Source of the DNA: a virus
DNA: 10,143 nt
Virus genome (UHGV): UHGV-1652557
Strand: one strand, 5' to 3'
Shown: positions 797 to 7,260 of the stretch, one piece after another
Layout: every line of letters begins with the position of its first letter
Numbering within the stretch: position 1 is the stretch's first letter
Position numbers and translations under genes: made by a program
Notes under the pieces: model-generated
The model's database searches: none
What the model was told of the DNA's origin: nothing
What the model saw: the letters and a program-made list of their open reading frames with translations, nothing else

Positions 797-1722
797 AAAT
801 CCACCCCATAAATCCAGTCAGTGTTTGTCAGGTCGAGTTTTGATTTTCCGGCTGTCACGCCAGCCTGTTGCTTGTTACGGTTGATTTCGAGTTGGGTCCA
901 CTTGTCGCGGAGTTTGGCCGGACTTAGCACGTTACCGGACCAGAAGTTGTCCTGGCATGCCCAGCGGAACAGCACGCACATGTCGCGGTGGTTACGTCCG
1001 TCACGTTCACGCATCAGGCGGATATCGTTAGCCCACCCTGCAAAATTCGGTTTTCTGGCTGATGGCGCGATGGTCTTCACCATGTCAAACATCCACTCTG
1101 CGGCGGTCAGGTCTTCTGCTGTCCCCCACCTGCTGCCGCTCTGAATTGCAGCATCTGGTTTCTCCACAGGAAGATCGTTTTCTGGTTGGTCAGAGGATTC
1201 GCCAGAATTCTCGGACGAAAAAGGTTTTATATTGTCTTTTGTTAGTTTGTCTTTTGTGTTTACCTGATTCGGGTAAACGCCTTTACCTGATTTGGGTAAA
1301 CTTTTCTTACCTGATTCAGGTAAATTTACCTCTTTCAGGTAAACTTTATTTTTCTTACCTGATTCGGGTAATGTTGACCATTCACTGACCACATTATTAA
1401 TGCCGATATTCCGCCCGCTCTGAATAAGAATCCCACGCTTTACCAGAACGCTTTTTGCAGCAGAACACTTGTGCGGCAATATCCCGGTCAACTCGGAAAG
1501 TTGCTCGTTGCTCACCCAATCCAGTTTTTTATTAAAGCCATATGTTTTGCGCATGACAGCCAGGAAGACCAGAAGCTGGTGCTGTGTTAATCCGGCCAGC
1601 ATCACAGCTTCCAGCAACTCATTTGCAATGCGCGTATAACCATCATCGAGATCTGCCACGCGCGGCTCCTTTTGTGCCGCATCCGGCACTGGAAAATTGA
1701 ATATCTCAGCAGTGTTTGCCAT
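793..1722 (-). CDS. O: Replication initiator protein O (mosaic: non-lambda N-terminal half, lambda-type C-terminal P-interaction domain)
   Basis: The ORF is open from 1812, but the internal Met at 1722-1720 gives MANTAEIFNF, which aligns with the lambda O N-terminus MTNTAKILNF, and is preceded by a GGGAGG RBS. The DLDDGY motif is present. The C-terminal ~90 aa matches lambda O from memory. Iterons lie inside the gene as in lambda ori. Confidence 0.88.
   Translation of the reverse strand: MANTAEIFNFPVPDAAQKEPRVADLDDGYTRIANELLEAVMLAGLTQHQLLVFLAVMRKTYGFNKKLDWVSNEQLSELTGILPHKCSAAKSVLVKRGILIQSGRNIGINNVVSEWSTLPESGKKNKVYLKEVNLPESGKKSLPKSGKGVYPNQVNTKDKLTKDNIKPFSSENSGESSDQPENDLPVEKPDAAIQSGSRWGTAEDLTAAEWMFDMVKTIAPSARKPNFAGWANDIRLMRERDGRNHRDMCVLFRWACQDNFWSGNVLSPAKLRDKWTQLEINRNKQQAGVTAGKSKLDLTNTDWIYGVDL
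1257..1378. repeat. Origin of replication: five iterons, each an inverted repeat TTACC-N6/7-GGTAA (e.g. TTACCTGATTCGGGTAA), flanked by an AT-rich tract at 1215-1256
   Basis: Direct reading: TACC cores at 1261, 1284, 1308, 1327 and 1356 with 19-29 bp spacing, inside the O coding sequence. The adjacent AT-rich stretch (aaaaaggttttatattgtcttttgttagtttgtcttttgtgttt) lies downstream in the O reading direction, as in lambda ori. Confidence 0.8.
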
Positions 1723-2348: not shown

Positions 2349-2417
2349 AATTGACTCCTTTAGTTTGAATTGACTGTTAAGTTGATTGCTTATTGTTAAA
2401 GAGCGTGAAATGGAAAT

Positions 2418-2752: not shown

Positions 2753-3442
2753 ATGAAAACAACACTCTCAGAAAGACTTAAAGAAGCCAGATTAGCGCGA
2801 GGCCTTACACAAAAGGCGCTTGGGGATTTGGTCGGGGTTAGCCAGGCTGCTATTCAGAAAATCGAAACAGGGAAAGCTAACCAAACAACTAAAATCGTGG
2901 AGATCGCGAACGCTTTGGGTGTGCGCGCAGAATGGTTATCTTCTGGCGTTGGAAATATGTCAGACAGTACAGTGCAACCAATACAATCAACTGTCAGCCA
3001 TTCCAAATACTTCAAAATTGACGTTCTTGATATAGAAGTCAGTGCCGGGCCAGGTGTAATCAACCGTGAGTTTGTAGAAGTTCTACGCTCGGTTGAGTAC
3101 TCGTTTGACGATGCTCGTCACATGTTCGATGGCAGGAAGGCGGAAAATATCCGCATCATTAACGTGCGAGGTGACAGCATGTCAGGGACGATCGAACCAG
3201 GTGACCTGCTGTTCGTTGATATCACTGTTAAATCTTTCGACGGTGATGGCATCTATGCGTTTCTGTACGACGACACTGCCCATGTAAAACGTCTTCAAAT
3301 GATGAAGGATAAGCTGCTGGTTATCTCTGATAACAAGAGCTACTCGCCGTGGGACCCGATCGAGAAAGACGAGATGAACCGGGTGTTCATATTCGGTAAG
3401 GTCATTGGAAGCATGCCGCAGACGTACAGGAAGCATGGTTAA
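2753..3442 (+). CDS. cI: CI-like prophage repressor (N-terminal HTH, C-terminal LexA-like S24 autopeptidase domain)
   Basis: 229 aa. HTH LTQKALGDLVGVSQAAIQKIETGK. Ala-Gly candidate cleavage site in EVSAGPG. GDSM serine motif and downstream VKRL lysine motif typical of the LexA/CI S24 family. Confidence 0.92.
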   Translation: MKTTLSERLKEARLARGLTQKALGDLVGVSQAAIQKIETGKANQTTKIVEIANALGVRAEWLSSGVGNMSDSTVQPIQSTVSHSKYFKIDVLDIEVSAGPGVINREFVEVLRSVEYSFDDARHMFDGRKAENIRIINVRGDSMSGTIEPGDLLFVDITVKSFDGDGIYAFLYDDTAHVKRLQMMKDKLLVISDNKSYSPWDPIEKDEMNRVFIFGKVIGSMPQTYRKHG

Positions 3443-3671: not shown

Positions 3672-4052
3672 ATGAGAAAAATCCTAATCGCTGCCATGAT
3701 GGCATCTGTATTGGCTGGGTGTGCTTCTTCAGGCAACCAGCAACTCAAAAATGAAACTGAAATTAGTGTCCAGTCTAAACTTCAGGAAGGTAAAACAACC
3801 AAGAATGAGGTTAAATCTTACTTTGGTTCTCCTGATGCTGTTTCATATACTGACAGTGGAAACGAGATCTGGAAGTACGCCTTTGCAAAAGTAAAAGTTA
3901 ATGGCACCACTTTTATTCCATTCTATGGATTATTCCATAATGGAACGAACGGTACGAAAAAAGAACTTACTATTCTTTTTAACGATGACACGATTAAGAA
4001 ATACACAATGTCAGAAACCCAAATAAACTCGAAATCAGGTTGGGCTGACTGA
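3672..4052 (+). CDS. Lipoprotein moron with a BamE/SmpA-OmlA-like domain (candidate lysogenic-conversion or superinfection-exclusion protein)
   Basis: 126 aa. Signal peptide with lipobox LAGC (MRKILIAAMMASVLAGC). Mature part shows a BamE-like pattern (KTTKNEVKSYFGSPDAVSYTDSGNEIWKYAF ... LTILFNDD), from memory. Preceded by an AT-rich 228-bp spacer with a perfect TATAAT at 3651-3656. Followed by a strong terminator. Confidence 0.85.
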   Translation: MRKILIAAMMASVLAGCASSGNQQLKNETEISVQSKLQEGKTTKNEVKSYFGSPDAVSYTDSGNEIWKYAFAKVKVNGTTFIPFYGLFHNGTNGTKKELTILFNDDTIKKYTMSETQINSKSGWAD

Positions 4053-4089: not shown

Positions 4090-4198
4090 TCCCCCTCATA
4101 ACTCATACCGTCCAAAAAACCACCACACCTCACTTCAGTTATCGCTATGCGATGCAAGTCACAAAATAAATCCATCCTAAATACAACCAGTTATATTT

Positions 4199-4260
4199 AA
4201 AACAACCGACAAAACAACTTTTGTTGTTGACGATAAAACAACTATAGTTTTAAATAAATT
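4199..4260 (+). promoter_or_regulatory. Left operator/promoter region (OL/PL)
   Basis: -35 TTGACG (4228-4233), 17-bp spacer, -10 TTAAAT (4251-4256), reading toward kil-gam-bet-exo. Operator AAAACAACTATAGTTTT (4237-4253) fills the spacer and differs at one base from the PR-strand reading of the OR operator. Additional AACAAC-N4-GTTGTT site at 4213-4228 and an AACAAC-containing site at 4199-4218. Confidence 0.7.
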
Positions 4261-4532
4261 CATCGCAACGACACAACGATACGGTAACCACCTGTTTCAC
4301 CGTTGCGATGACCGCTTAGATCCGCAGTTTGAATTTCAGCAGGCTTCGGGGAGTGCGAGGGGTGAAGCGGACGCGTGAACGTCGGTGTGACCAGCTGAAA
4401 TCAACTCAACACTTCATACCTCAGTCGCTTCAACGAGGCGACTTAGTTATGACAACCGGCGGCCATCCACCGCCTGAATACGCGCAGAAGTCTCTATATG
4501 TTCAGCAGCCCAGCTTACGGGCAGGAGTTTTT

Positions 4533-4739
4533 ATGGTTCATCAACATTACGGAACGCAGACCGTTAATCGAGGTGCGGTCATGCCAGGAATGCTGGTCAA
4601 ACACAAAGATGGTACCTGGACTGCATCAGCTAATTTACGCGGACGGCTTTATCTGCATCGCGGCATCGAGCGCACTTATACCCGTGATTTGCTCGTGGAA
4701 GTTTTTCTCGACGGACGCGGTAACGGCCTGAATCGCTAA
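4533..4739 (+). CDS. kil: Kil protein, KilR-type (host cell-division inhibitor)
   Basis: 68-aa reading from the ATG at 4533 with an AGGAG RBS 5 nt upstream. MVHQHYGTQ...[17 protein letters not shown]...LY...[10 protein letters not shown] resembles Rac prophage KilR as I recall it (HHFGT...PGDYVLHEGRTYIASAN...VFLGRDGLPV). Position between PL and gam. The longer ORF from the TTG at 4329 or the ATG at 4449 lacks a good RBS. Confidence 0.65.
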
Positions 4740-4814
4740 TCCCCTTTCCTGTTTTCCTAATCAGCCTGGCATTTCGCGGGCGATATTTTCACAGCCATTT
4801 TCAGGAGTTCAGCC

Positions 4815-5902: not shown

Positions 5903-6579
5903 CACCGGACATTATCCTGCAGCGTACCGGAATCGACGTGAGAGCTGTCGAACAGGGGGATGATGCGTGGCACAAATTACGGCTCGGCGTCATCACCGCT
6001 TCAGAAGTTCACAATGTGATAGCAAAACCCCGCTCCGGAAAAAAGTGGCCTGACATGAAAATGTCCTACTTCCACACCCTGCTGGCTGAGGTTTGCACCG
6101 GTGTGGCTCCGGAAGTTAATGCTAAGGCGCTGGCATGGGGAAAACAGTACGAGAACGACGCCAGAACTCTGTTTGAATTCACTTCCGGCGTGAATGTTAC
6201 TGAATCCCCGATCATCTATCGCGACGAAAGTATGCGTACCGCCTGCTCTCCCGATGGTTTATGCAGTGACGGCAATGGCCTTGAGCTGAAATGCCCGTTT
6301 ACCTCCCGGGATTTCATGAAGTTCCGGCTCGGTGGTTTCGAGGCCATAAAGTCGGCTTACATGGCCCAGGTGCAGTACAGCATGTGGGTGACGCGAAAAG
6401 ATGCCTGGTACTTTGCCAACTATGACCCGCGTATGAAGCGTGAAGGCCTGCATTATGTCGTGGTTGAGCGGGATGAAAAGTACATGGCGAGTTTTGACGA
6501 GATGGTGCCGGAGTTCATCGAAAAAATGGACGAGGCACTGGCTGAAATTGGTTTTGTATTTGGGGAGCAATGGCGATGA
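5899..6579 (+). CDS. exo: Exo (Red-alpha) 5'-3' exonuclease
   Basis: 226-aa translation matches lambda Exo from memory. ATGA overlap with the bet stop. Confidence 0.96.
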
Positions 6580-6758
6580 CGCATCCTCACGATAATATCC
6601 GGGTGGGCGCGATCACTTTCGTCTACTCCATTACAAAGCGAGGCTGGGTATTTCCCGGCCTTTCTGTTATCAGAAATCCCCTGAAAGCACAGCGGCTGGC
6701 TGAGGAGATAAATAATAAACGGGGAGCTGTATGCACAAAGCATCTCCCGTTGAGTTAA
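6576..6758 (+). CDS. Lambda orf60a-like exo-xis region protein
   Basis: 60-aa reading from the ATG at 6576, overlapping the exo stop. Same length and position as lambda orf60a. An alternative ATG lies at 6570. Confidence 0.75.
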
Positions 6759-7214: not shown

Positions 7215-7235
7215 ACATGAAAAGCAAAATCATCA

Positions 7236-7260
7236 GGGAGCTACAGGCTCCTTTTTTATT
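7236..7260 (+). terminator. Rho-independent terminator inside the exo-xis region
   Basis: Stem GGAGC (7237-7241) / GCTCC (7247-7251), loop TACAG, then TTTTTTATTATT. Confidence 0.6.

What the first reader, a model, noticed from the sequence alone, without database searches (positions are those of the whole stretch)
4257..4532. PL operon lacks N and cIII; a ~270-nt structured leader precedes kil
No N-like or cIII-like ORF lies between PL and kil. The only long ORF is an unlikely TTG-initiated extension of kil. The leader contains a perfect 11-bp inverted repeat TCATCGCAACG (4260-4270) / CGTTGCGATGA (4301-4311) around a 30-nt loop with a GGTAACC core. It also contains TTTCAGC (4335-4341) / GCTGAAA (4394-4400) and GTCGC (4424-4428) / GCGAC (4438-4442). 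Meanwhile terminators sit inside the downstream operon (7236-7260). This raises the question of how the leftward operon is antiterminated; one possibility is a cis-acting RNA of the kind HK022 uses (put), another is a protein-binding site at the transcription start.
Basis: partly seen in the sequence, partly recalled or inferred. Interest (0 to 1): 0.55.

Follow-up and report, generated by a model that had tools for sequence, protein, structure and literature searches.

The report
N-less prophage PL leader before kil
This is the roughly 270-base leader of the early-left transcript of a very common lambda-like E. coli prophage that has no N gene; the usual N gene and first terminator are replaced by a terminator-free leader that ends in a widely shared RNA hairpin and mini-gene module, and nothing links it to the known antiterminator RNAs.

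Summary
The sequence features are real: no N or cIII, an 11-bp inverted repeat at the predicted PL start, two further repeats, and a strong terminator at 7235-7260.

The leader is a mosaic.
- **Part (i), 4262-4412.** It occurs only in one E. coli prophage/phage family (2255 of 5426 complete genomes; Bievrevirus phages such as 4A7 and Perceval). It starts with hairpin 1 at the 5' end. It shows no covariation, no excess stability overall, no second copy, and no match to a put covariance model or to Rfam.
- **Part (ii), 4413-4532.** This module is shared with N-type (phi80) and put-type (HK639) lambdoid phages. Its long hairpin P3 (4414-4452) has real covariation and buries GAGG and the AUG of a frame-conserved polyproline mini-ORF (MTTGGHPPP...). 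Hairpin hp4 lies over the proline codons.

In 80 other phages this module directly follows an intrinsic terminator (tL1). Here that terminator and the T-tract after hp4 are missing.

Best reading: the N-nutL-tL1 cassette was replaced by a terminator-free leader, so kil through exo needs no antiterminator. The leader probably tunes kil mRNA stability and translation. A new cis-antiterminator RNA is not excluded (about 0.1).

The parts
4227..4255 (+). Predicted PL promoter: TTGACG (4227-4232), 17-nt spacer, TTAAAT (4250-4255), embedded in AACAAC/GTTGTT operator half-sites. The predicted start is about A4262.
   Evidence: Read and matched to PR on the other strand (TTGACT-17-TAATCT). The consensus scan missed it because position 2 of the -10 is not A. 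The start site is inferred, not mapped. Homology with phages of other immunity types begins at 4263.
4260..4311 (+). Hairpin 1 at the predicted 5' end of the transcript. It has 11 bp here; the family core is 4261-4269 paired with 4302-4310. The loop is 30 nt.
   Evidence: -18.5 kcal/mol, z -4.8. The stem is kept in five immunity types with 0-1 mismatch and only G-U-type one-sided changes, and the loop is replaced in type C. Relatives in Enterobacter, Kluyvera and Silvania have GACAAC-9 nt-GTTGTC at the same place. No double changes occur within the family.
4312..4333 (+). Linker ACCGCTTAGATCCGCAGTTTGA, nearly invariant in the family.
   Evidence: It has only weak resemblance to boxA, and no boxA-like site with 3 or fewer mismatches lies in the leader.
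4334..4400 (+). G-rich 'hairpin 2' domain closed by TTTCAGC/GCTGAAA. It also holds the Arg-rich reading frame that starts at GTG 4362.
   Evidence: z -1.4, not significant; the closing stem is 99.7% paired but shows only two one-sided G-U changes. RNAalifold prefers a different fold. G exceeds C here.
4401..4413 (+). C-rich, G-poor spacer TCAACTCAACACT. It sits where other phages have the tL1 hairpin and T-tract. The family carries a TCAAC duplication polymorphism here.
   Evidence: C=10, G=2 in 4397-4426.
4414..4452 (+). P3, a long irregular hairpin of 5+2+9 bp. It buries the SD-like GAGG (4435-4438) and the AUG at 4449-4451.
   Evidence: One search gives the fold. One search covers 81 sequences: 95% of cells paired, 7 pairs with changes on both sides, 82 such cells, and 0/500 shuffles reach the covariation score. 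Frequent U-G pairs show it is RNA of the + strand.
4449..4532 (+). Mini-ORF MTTGGHPPP... In other phages it is 16-24 aa and ends ...EVLY-TAA. Here the TAA is lost and the frame runs into kil.
   Evidence: length classes 16, 20, 21, 22 and 24 aa all keep the frame to the same TAA; open and in frame with kil in 61 of 69 family variants, broken in 8.
4458..4474 (+). Hairpin hp4, GGCGG-CCATCCA-CCGCC, lying over codons 4-9 (GGHPPP) of the mini-ORF.
   Evidence: -8.9 kcal/mol, z -2.1. (99% paired). It is followed by a T-tract in L226, L262, L277 and L265 and is annotated 'terminator' in HK639. The window has no T-tract.
4508..4527 (+). Small hairpin hp5, GCCC-AGCTTAC-GGGC (4508-4522), followed by the kil Shine-Dalgarno AGGAG (4523-4527).
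   Evidence: Alignment shows different GC stems at the same place in other phages (CGCG/CGCG, GCC/GGC).
4533..4739 (+). kil, a KilR-type FtsZ inhibitor of 68 aa.
   Evidence: PHROG 294, E 1.7e-37. Annotated as Kil in related phages.
7235..7260 (+). Intrinsic terminator after the orf61 homologue.
   Evidence: z -4.1. The surrounding 181 bp are 97% identical to lambda 30596-30776 and to Stx phages.

Best explanation
The stretch is the 5' leader of the early-left (PL) transcript of an N-less, lambda-like prophage. It was built by replacing the usual nutL-N-tL1 cassette with about 150 nt of family-specific sequence, called part (i) here. That sequence joins, exactly at the end of the missing terminator's T-tract, onto a conserved lambdoid module that precedes kil, called part (ii).

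The first terminator is gone and hp4 has no T-tract. RNA polymerase can therefore reach kil, gam, bet and exo without any antiterminator.

The leader's likely job is post-transcriptional.
- Hairpin 1, at the very 5' end, most likely protects the mRNA from 5'-end-dependent decay.
- P3 hides the start of a polyproline mini-ORF.
- Translation or stalling of that mini-ORF over hp4, together with hp5 next to the kil ribosome site, would tune how much of the toxic Kil protein is made.

The terminator at 7236-7260 then either ends or attenuates the early-left transcript.

Shown: the anatomy, the mosaic origin, the missing terminator, P3 covariation, frame conservation of the mini-ORF, the absence of N, and no put similarity. 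Inferred: the start site, the stabilising role of hairpin 1, and the translational role of P3 and the mini-ORF.
For: - **No N.** None is found in the prophage or in phage 4A7.
- **The family is viable.** Perceval is an active prophage of strain LF82 (PMC9928086).
- **Mosaic structure.** Part (i) is found only in this E. coli family. Part (ii) also occurs in phi80, HK225, HK639 and in Enterobacter, Klebsiella and Salmonella phages.
- **Missing terminator.** In 80 of 80 other sequences a GC hairpin plus T5-7 lies just upstream of CATACCT, directly abutting it in most and separated by a 6-nt ATCGGC insert in two (HK639 and Enterobacter phage BHUENT6). It is annotated tL1A in phi80 and 'terminator' in HK639. 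The window has ...AACACTT there instead.
- **P3 covariation**.
- **Mini-ORF frame** kept across five length classes.
- **Moderate constraint only.** Leader diversity is pi 0.02-0.03. That lies between third codon positions (0.04-0.06) and first/second positions (0.001-0.011), and equals the kil-gam spacer.
- **Relatives in other genera.** N-less relatives in four other genera put kil about 75-220 nt after PL. They share only the 5' hairpin motif and hp5. The Enterobacter one has no predicted sense-strand terminator in the 2.7 kb downstream.
- **Contrast with HK639.** This put-dependent phage keeps tL1 and the hp4 terminator, whereas this family has neither.
Against: - The start site is only predicted.
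- Hairpin 1 is weak in the majority variant (-8.6 kcal/mol, z -0.5), so a stabilising role is not secure.
- The family keeps lambda-type terminators downstream in PL: 6640-6662 and 7235-7260.
- In 4A7, terminator-like sites follow morons on the PR-sense strand between P and Q. Expression of xis and Q from PL and PR is therefore unexplained without some read-through or extra promoters.
- In this family the mini-ORF has lost its own stop codon, so its role here may differ from that in other phages.
Confidence: 0.55

Rival explanations
1. Part (i), meaning hairpin 1 with or without the G-rich domain, is a new cis-acting RNA unrelated to put. It stays with RNA polymerase and makes it resistant to terminators, taking the place of N.
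For: - The structure starts at the predicted +1. HK022 putL likewise starts at +3 (PMC9378689).
- The phage lacks N but keeps lambda-type terminators in PL.
- The 5' motif CATCG(A)CAAC...GTTG recurs in N-less relatives of other genera, with one extra A-U pair.
- Part (i) is joined unchanged to five different immunity regions.
Against: - The put model finds no match.
- There is no twin in the PR operon or anywhere in the prophage.
- There is no covariation and no excess stability.
- Relatives keep only a 6-bp hairpin in a roughly 75-nt leader.
- The first terminator has been lost, which an efficient antiterminator would not require. HK639 keeps it.
Confidence: 0.12
2. Part (i) has no specific function. 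It is filler or scar left by the recombination that removed N and tL1, and its repeats are tolerated rather than selected.
For: - Overall folding equals shuffles (z 0.0).
- No covariation.
- Diversity equals another intergenic spacer.
- Uncompensated stem changes exist: T4304G in PhiR26_1, A4267T, G4265A, and G4270A in most variants.
- RNAalifold picks a different fold.
Against: - The stem complementarity survives replacement of the loop and of the upstream promoter in types C, D and E.
- A homologous 5' hairpin exists in other genera.
- Diversity is about half that of third codon positions.
Confidence: 0.15
3. The 11-bp inverted repeat is a DNA site for a dimeric or tetrameric protein that sits on the transcription start.
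For: The arms are perfect in this window, and their centres are 41 bp apart, about four helical turns.
Against: - Only 9 bp are kept in the family.
- The tolerated changes (C4261T, A4262G, C4264T) keep G-U pairing on the + strand but would be A-C mismatches on the other strand and asymmetric for a DNA palindrome.
- The same repeat is attached to five unrelated operator sets.
- No candidate protein is evident.
Confidence: 0.04
4. The leader is translated. An Arg-rich N-like peptide starting at GTG 4362 (MKRTRERRCDQLK...), alone or fused to Kil, acts as the antiterminator.
For: - KRTRERR resembles the Arg-rich RNA-binding motif of lambda N (my own knowledge).
- GGGGAG lies 8 nt upstream of the GTG.
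- GTG is ATG in 5 variants, and the commonest polymorphism, 4367, is synonymous.
- Gene callers annotate this 125-aa 'Kil' in PhiR26_1.
Against: - TAG at 4422 in 18-19 of 69 variants, and frameshifts from the TCAAC duplication in 5.
- No Pfam or PHROG match.
- No boxB-like target.
- The downstream part of the frame is module (ii), which is read in other frames in other phages.
Confidence: 0.03
5. The 5' end of the PL transcript pairs with the host small RNA GcvB, either as a sponge or as a target.
For: The majority variant carries CAACAACACAAC, a perfect complement of GUUGUGUUGUUG in the GcvB R1 seed. The window carries CAACGACACAAC at 4266-4277. The GcvB sequence was verified. Phage RNAs that mimic GcvB targets are known (AgvB, PMC4104026).
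Against: - The duplex energy is not an outlier among 2018 windows of this sequence.
- The motif is partly buried in the hairpin 1 stem.
- It is absent from immunity type C and degraded in types D and E.
- AgvB itself lies elsewhere, at the PR' moron site.
- The match was noticed post hoc.
Confidence: 0.05

Closest known systems
put RNAs of phages HK022 and HK639 (cis-acting antiterminator RNAs)
   Same: Both are in N-less lambdoid phages. The RNA structure begins at the very start of the PL transcript (HK022 putL starts at +3).
   Different: There is no sequence or structure match to a put model. No second copy lies in the right operon. The candidate has no covariation. HK639 keeps the tL1 terminators that this family lacks.
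lambda-type N/nut antitermination with tL1 (phi80 N, nutL, tL1A)
   Same: The operon layout downstream is the same. Module (ii) of the window is the sequence that follows N and tL1A in phi80. The exo-xis block and its terminator are 97% identical to lambda.
   Different: There is no N gene, no nutL and no tL1 hairpin or T-tract. The only boxA is after cro, it has no boxB, and it is missing from sister phages of other immunity types.
Ribosome-mediated leader-peptide attenuators with consecutive proline codons (for example mgtP of the Salmonella mgtCBR leader; from my own knowledge)
   Same: A short upstream ORF carries three consecutive proline codons placed over one arm of a hairpin. In some phages that hairpin is followed by a T-tract.
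   Different: Nothing has been tested experimentally. In the window hp4 has no T-tract and the ORF has lost its stop and runs into kil. P3 additionally sequesters the ORF's own start.
5'-terminal stabilising stem-loops of bacterial mRNAs (ompA-type; from my own knowledge)
   Same: The stem starts within 0-3 nt of the predicted 5' end. This feature recurs in N-less relatives from other genera.
   Different: The start site is unmapped. The stem closes a 30-nt loop and is weak in most family members. No half-life data exist.

Membership tests
put antiterminator RNA (HK022/HK639) | Sequence and two-stem structure matching the put consensus | tested here: not met
   Model R1 was built from HK022 putL, HK022 putR and HK639 putL. 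It recovers its own members at 73-99 bits. In the window, the prophage L092 and phage 4A7 it gives nothing above 13 bits (E 0.25, inside the O gene), and nothing in the leader. blastn of the leader against all phage records did not hit the put regions.
put antiterminator RNA (HK022/HK639) | Lies just downstream of the PL start | tested here: inconclusive
   Hairpin 1 starts at the predicted +1 (reading; homology breakpoint at 4263). The start site is inferred from promoter hexamers only.
put antiterminator RNA (HK022/HK639) | A related second copy in the right operon (putR in HK022) | tested here: not met
   No second copy of part (i) occurs in the window, the prophage or 4A7. The cro-to-next-gene spacer is only 69 nt here and 30 nt in 4A7. 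The HK639 record itself annotates only putL plus an 'M3-like RNA'.
put antiterminator RNA (HK022/HK639) | Cis-acting terminator read-through that is blocked by RNA polymerase beta-prime zinc-binding-domain mutations | not testable with these tools
   This needs reporter assays in rpoC mutant hosts.
N/nut antitermination | N protein (Arg-rich, about 100 aa) encoded as the first PL gene | tested here: not met
   No ORF is recognised. The Arg-rich frame is interrupted in many variants. The prophage annotation and a PHROG scan of its hypothetical proteins show no N.
N/nut antitermination | boxA plus boxB nut sites in both early operons | tested here: not met
   One exact boxA lies after cro (2393-2405, minus strand). 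None with 3 or fewer mismatches lies in the PL leader. No boxB-like hairpin is seen by eye. boxA is absent in 4A7.
Leader-peptide (ribosome-mediated) attenuator | Short ORF whose reading frame is conserved | tested here: met
   In other phages the 16, 20, 21, 22 and 24-aa forms all run from MTTGGHPPP to ...EVLY-TAA. In the window family the start and PPP are kept but the stop is lost.
Leader-peptide (ribosome-mediated) attenuator | The ORF overlaps a terminator or alternative hairpins | tested here: inconclusive
   hp4 covers codons 4-9. It carries a T-tract in only a few phages (L226, L262, L277, L265) and none in the window.
5'-terminal stabilising stem-loop | Stem within a few nt of the 5' end that prolongs mRNA half-life | not testable with these tools
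   The position is consistent. Half-life and 5' end need experiments.
Any Rfam family | Match at or near the gathering score | tested here: not met
   No hits at gathering thresholds in the window. Only chance-level hits (E above 1) appear in 4100-4800.

The most novel reading that the evidence does not exclude
The family-specific 150-nt 5' part, beginning with the hairpin at +1, is a new class of cis-acting RNA unrelated to put. It renders RNA polymerase terminator-resistant in the early-left operon of a prophage family present in about 40% of complete E. coli genomes. Separately, the P3, polyproline mini-ORF and hp4 module shared by many lambdoid phages would be an undescribed ribosome- or EF-P-sensing attenuator placed just after tL1.
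Probability: 0.1. Interest if true: 0.8.

Novelty: new variant of a known kind. Interest (0 to 1): 0.45.

Why it matters
Lambda-like prophages without N are very common, yet how they run their early operons has been worked out only for HK022 and HK639. This family occurs in 2255 of 5426 complete E. coli genomes.

The analysis makes the question concrete.
- The first terminator has been removed rather than overridden.
- The candidate RNA is delimited to 4262-4412.
- A small set of reporter and 5'/3'-end mapping experiments would settle it.

It also exposes a conserved RNA and mini-ORF module (P3, MTTGGHPPP, hp4) between tL1 and the next gene in many lambdoid phages. The module has no Rfam family. 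Its position ahead of a toxic cell-division inhibitor suggests translational or attenuation control.

Tried and rejected
- **Rfam.** Gathering and permissive scans found nothing.
- **put.** A covariance model found no hit.
- **Covariation in part (i).** Tested on 56 family variants. RNAalifold chose another fold with 0 compensated pairs.
- **More distant homologues of part (i).** blastn at E up to 10 found only the same E. coli family.
- **Second copy of part (i).** None in the prophage or in 4A7.
- **Arg-rich ORF from GTG 4362 as a hidden N.** Rejected because of stop and frameshift polymorphisms and no family match.
- **boxA-based, rrn-like antitermination as a family mechanism.** Rejected because boxA occurs only with this immunity type and not in PL.
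- **AgvB identity.** Rejected. AgvB lies at the PR' moron site.
- **GcvB pairing.** Real complementarity, but not an energetic outlier.
- **Literature.** King et al. 2011 on HK639 could not be read because the paper is not held. Searches found no description of this leader.
- **Kil-based search of one genome per species.** It gave only 9 loci. These were enough to see the recurring 5' hairpin but not enough for statistics.

Full report
[quoted passage not shown] The + strand is the leftward (PL) direction.
- Leftward genes: cI (2753-3442), a BamE-like lipoprotein moron (3672-4052), PL, kil (4533-4739), then gam, bet, exo and homologues of lambda orf60a/63/61.
- Rightward genes on the minus strand: cro, a YdaT/CII-like gene, O and P.
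- An identical copy sits at the lambda attachment site of E. coli strain 582. That prophage has a QuuD late antiterminator but no N. PHROG scans of its unnamed proteins find no N family.
- The same arrangement occurs in isolated phages of the genus Bievrevirus (4A7, Lambda_4C10, Perceval, the PhiR series). Perceval is an active prophage (PMC9928086).
- The leader is present in 2255 of 5426 complete E. coli genomes, mostly at 95-99% identity.

**The observation.** The left TTTCAGC copy is at 4334-4340, one base off.
- Hairpin 1 is much more stable than shuffled sequence (z -4.8), as is hairpin 3 (z -3.9).
- The hairpin 2 domain (z -1.4), the 4262-4410 stretch (z 0.0) and the whole leader (z -1.4) are not.
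- The terminator at 7235-7260 is strong.
- No N- or cIII-like ORF lies between PL and kil.
- The promoter is best read as TTGACG-17-TTAAAT, by analogy with PR on the other strand. That places the start near A4262, at the foot of hairpin 1. This is inferred, not mapped.

**The leader is a mosaic.** Comparison with about 190 copies from viral contigs and phage records shows at least five unrelated operator and promoter sets joined to the same leader. Homology begins at 4263 (type B, 4A7) or at about 4296 (type C, O157-like).
- 4262-4412, called part (i), is found only in this E. coli family, even at permissive BLAST settings.
- 4413-4532, called part (ii), is also present in phi80, HK225, HK639 and phages of Enterobacter, Klebsiella and Salmonella.

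**Part (ii) is a real, conserved RNA and mini-ORF module.**
- *P3.* CATACCT and AGTTATG pair around hairpin 3 to form a long irregular hairpin, P3 (4414-4452). It encloses the SD-like GAGG and the AUG at 4449. Across 81 distinct sequences, 95% of cells are paired, seven pairs change on both sides (82 cells), and no shuffle out of 500 reaches the covariation score. Slid controls score far lower. Abundant U-G pairs show it is RNA of the + strand.
- *Mini-ORF.* The AUG opens a mini-ORF, MTTGGHPPP. In other phages it is 16, 20, 21, 22 or 24 codons long. Despite different middles, it keeps its frame to the same TAA (...EVLY*). That is a coding signature.
- *hp4.* Hairpin hp4 (4458-4474) lies over codons 4-9, including the three prolines. 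In a few phages it is followed by a T-tract, and it is annotated as a terminator in HK639.
- *hp5.* A small GC hairpin, hp5, precedes the ribosome site of whatever gene follows.
- *In the window family.* The TAA is lost and the frame runs into kil. It is open and in frame in 61 of 69 variants and broken in 8.
- No Rfam family matches.

**The key difference.** In all 80 other sequences of the alignment, a GC hairpin plus T5-7 lies just upstream of CATACCT, directly abutting it in most and separated by a 6-nt ATCGGC insert in two (HK639 and Enterobacter phage BHUENT6). That hairpin is tL1A of phi80 and the first annotated terminator after gene 44 of HK639. Upstream of it those phages carry N (phi80), put plus two genes (HK639) or other small genes.
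- The window family has ...TCAACTCAACACTT at that position and no T-tract after hp4.
- The operon's first terminator is therefore absent, while the put-dependent HK639 keeps both.
- The terminator at 7235-7260 lies in a block that is 97% identical to lambda 30596-30776 and to Stx phages. It came with the shared exo-xis module.

**Part (i) as an antiterminator RNA.** The tests that could be run do not support it.
- A covariance model of HK022 putL/putR and HK639 putL finds its own members at 73-99 bits. It finds nothing in the leader, the prophage or 4A7.
- There is no second copy of part (i). The cro-proximal spacer is too short to hold one.
- On 56 family variants RNAalifold chooses a different fold with no compensated pair.
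- Uncompensated changes exist: G4270A in most variants, T4304G, A4267T and G4265A. One A4270/T4301 pair is compensated in two loci.
- Nucleotide diversity of the leader is 0.02-0.03. That is about half of third codon positions and equal to the kil-gam spacer.

**Points in favour of some function for hairpin 1.**
- Its complementarity survives replacement of the loop (type C) and of the promoter (types B-E).
- N-less PL-to-kil leaders in Citrobacter, Kluyvera, Enterobacter and Silvania start with the same CATCG(A)CAAC motif.
- In three of those relatives the motif forms GACAAC-9 nt-GTTGTC. That is the E. coli GCAAC/GTTGC stem with one extra A-U pair, in leaders as short as about 75 nt.
- The stem is weak in the majority E. 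coli variant.

**Most likely mechanism.** The nutL-N-tL1 cassette has been replaced by a terminator-free leader, so kil through exo is transcribed without an antiterminator. Hairpin 1 at the 5' end most likely stabilises the mRNA. P3, the mini-ORF, hp4 and hp5 tune translation, and in other phages possibly attenuation, ahead of the toxic Kil. I put this at 0.55.
- The main open problem is expression beyond the downstream terminators: 6640-6662 and 7235-7260 in PL, and moron terminators on the PR-sense strand in 4A7.
- That problem keeps a new cis-antiterminator alive at about 0.1.

**Other readings.** These are a neutral recombination scar, a DNA-binding site, an Arg-rich N-like peptide and GcvB pairing. 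They are weighed in the rival list.

**Verdict.** The finding is best classed as a new variant of known kinds, namely an N-independent lambdoid early operon with a leader-ORF/hairpin module.

Noticed in passing
window 2393-2405, minus strand: An exact rrn-type boxA (CGCTCTTTAACAA) lies 13 nt after the cro stop codon, in the nutR position. No boxB hairpin follows it and the phage has no N. It is the only copy in the window and the prophage. It is absent from sister phage 4A7, which has a different immunity region.
   Followed up: partly
L007 about 6259-6275, minus strand (phage 4A7, just after cro): GCCGCCTAATCTGCGGC closely resembles the tL1 hairpin GCCGCCTAACCAGCGGC of other phages but has no T-tract. 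It may be a second disarmed terminator in an N-less phage.
   Followed up: no
window 4362-4424: An Arg-rich reading frame starts at GTG 4362 (MKRTRERRCDQLK...), reminiscent of the RNA-binding motif of lambda N. It is cut by a TAG at 4422 in 18-19 of 69 family variants and has no family match.
   Followed up: yes
window 4266-4277: CAACGACACAAC, which is CAACAACACAAC in most family members, is complementary to the R1 seed of the host small RNA GcvB. The predicted duplex is not an outlier within the window, and the motif is missing from some immunity types.
   Followed up: partly
window 4401-4410: The TCAAC TCAAC tandem unit has a third TCAAC copy in 5 of 69 family variants. It lies in a C-rich, G-poor stretch (C=10, G=2 in 30 nt) that could be a Rho loading site.
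   Followed up: no
L336, L339, L340, L341, L342 (Citrobacter and Kluyvera prophages), about 110 nt before kil: A long extra hairpin, GAGCTTCGCGGTGGTG...CACCACCAGCGAAGTTC (z -3.0), lies between hp5 and kil in these N-less relatives. Parts of it (GCTTCG..GGTGAA) resemble the window's hairpin 2 domain.
   Followed up: no
window 6640-6662: A terminator-like hairpin (9 bp, 6 GC) with a T-rich tail lies inside the orf60a homologue. It is also present in 4A7 (L007 11378-11400).
   Followed up: no
window 1259-1371: Five copies of about 17 bp, TTACCTGATTCGGGTAA, lie inside the O-like replication gene. These are lambda-style origin iterons.
   Followed up: no
L333 3611-3670 (HK639, after cII): The HK639 record annotates an 'M3-like RNA' in the right operon instead of a putR. 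The put model found no second put there.
   Followed up: no
L335 and L341: Contigs carrying Kil at 100% and 85% identity are labelled as Bacillota and Atopobium metagenome-assembled genomes. They are probably mis-binned enterobacterial phage DNA.
   Followed up: no
L092 11378-13347 and 24946-26174: The identical prophage in E. coli strain 582 carries IS21 and IS2 insertions and a frameshifted ren. That copy is probably defective.
   Followed up: no
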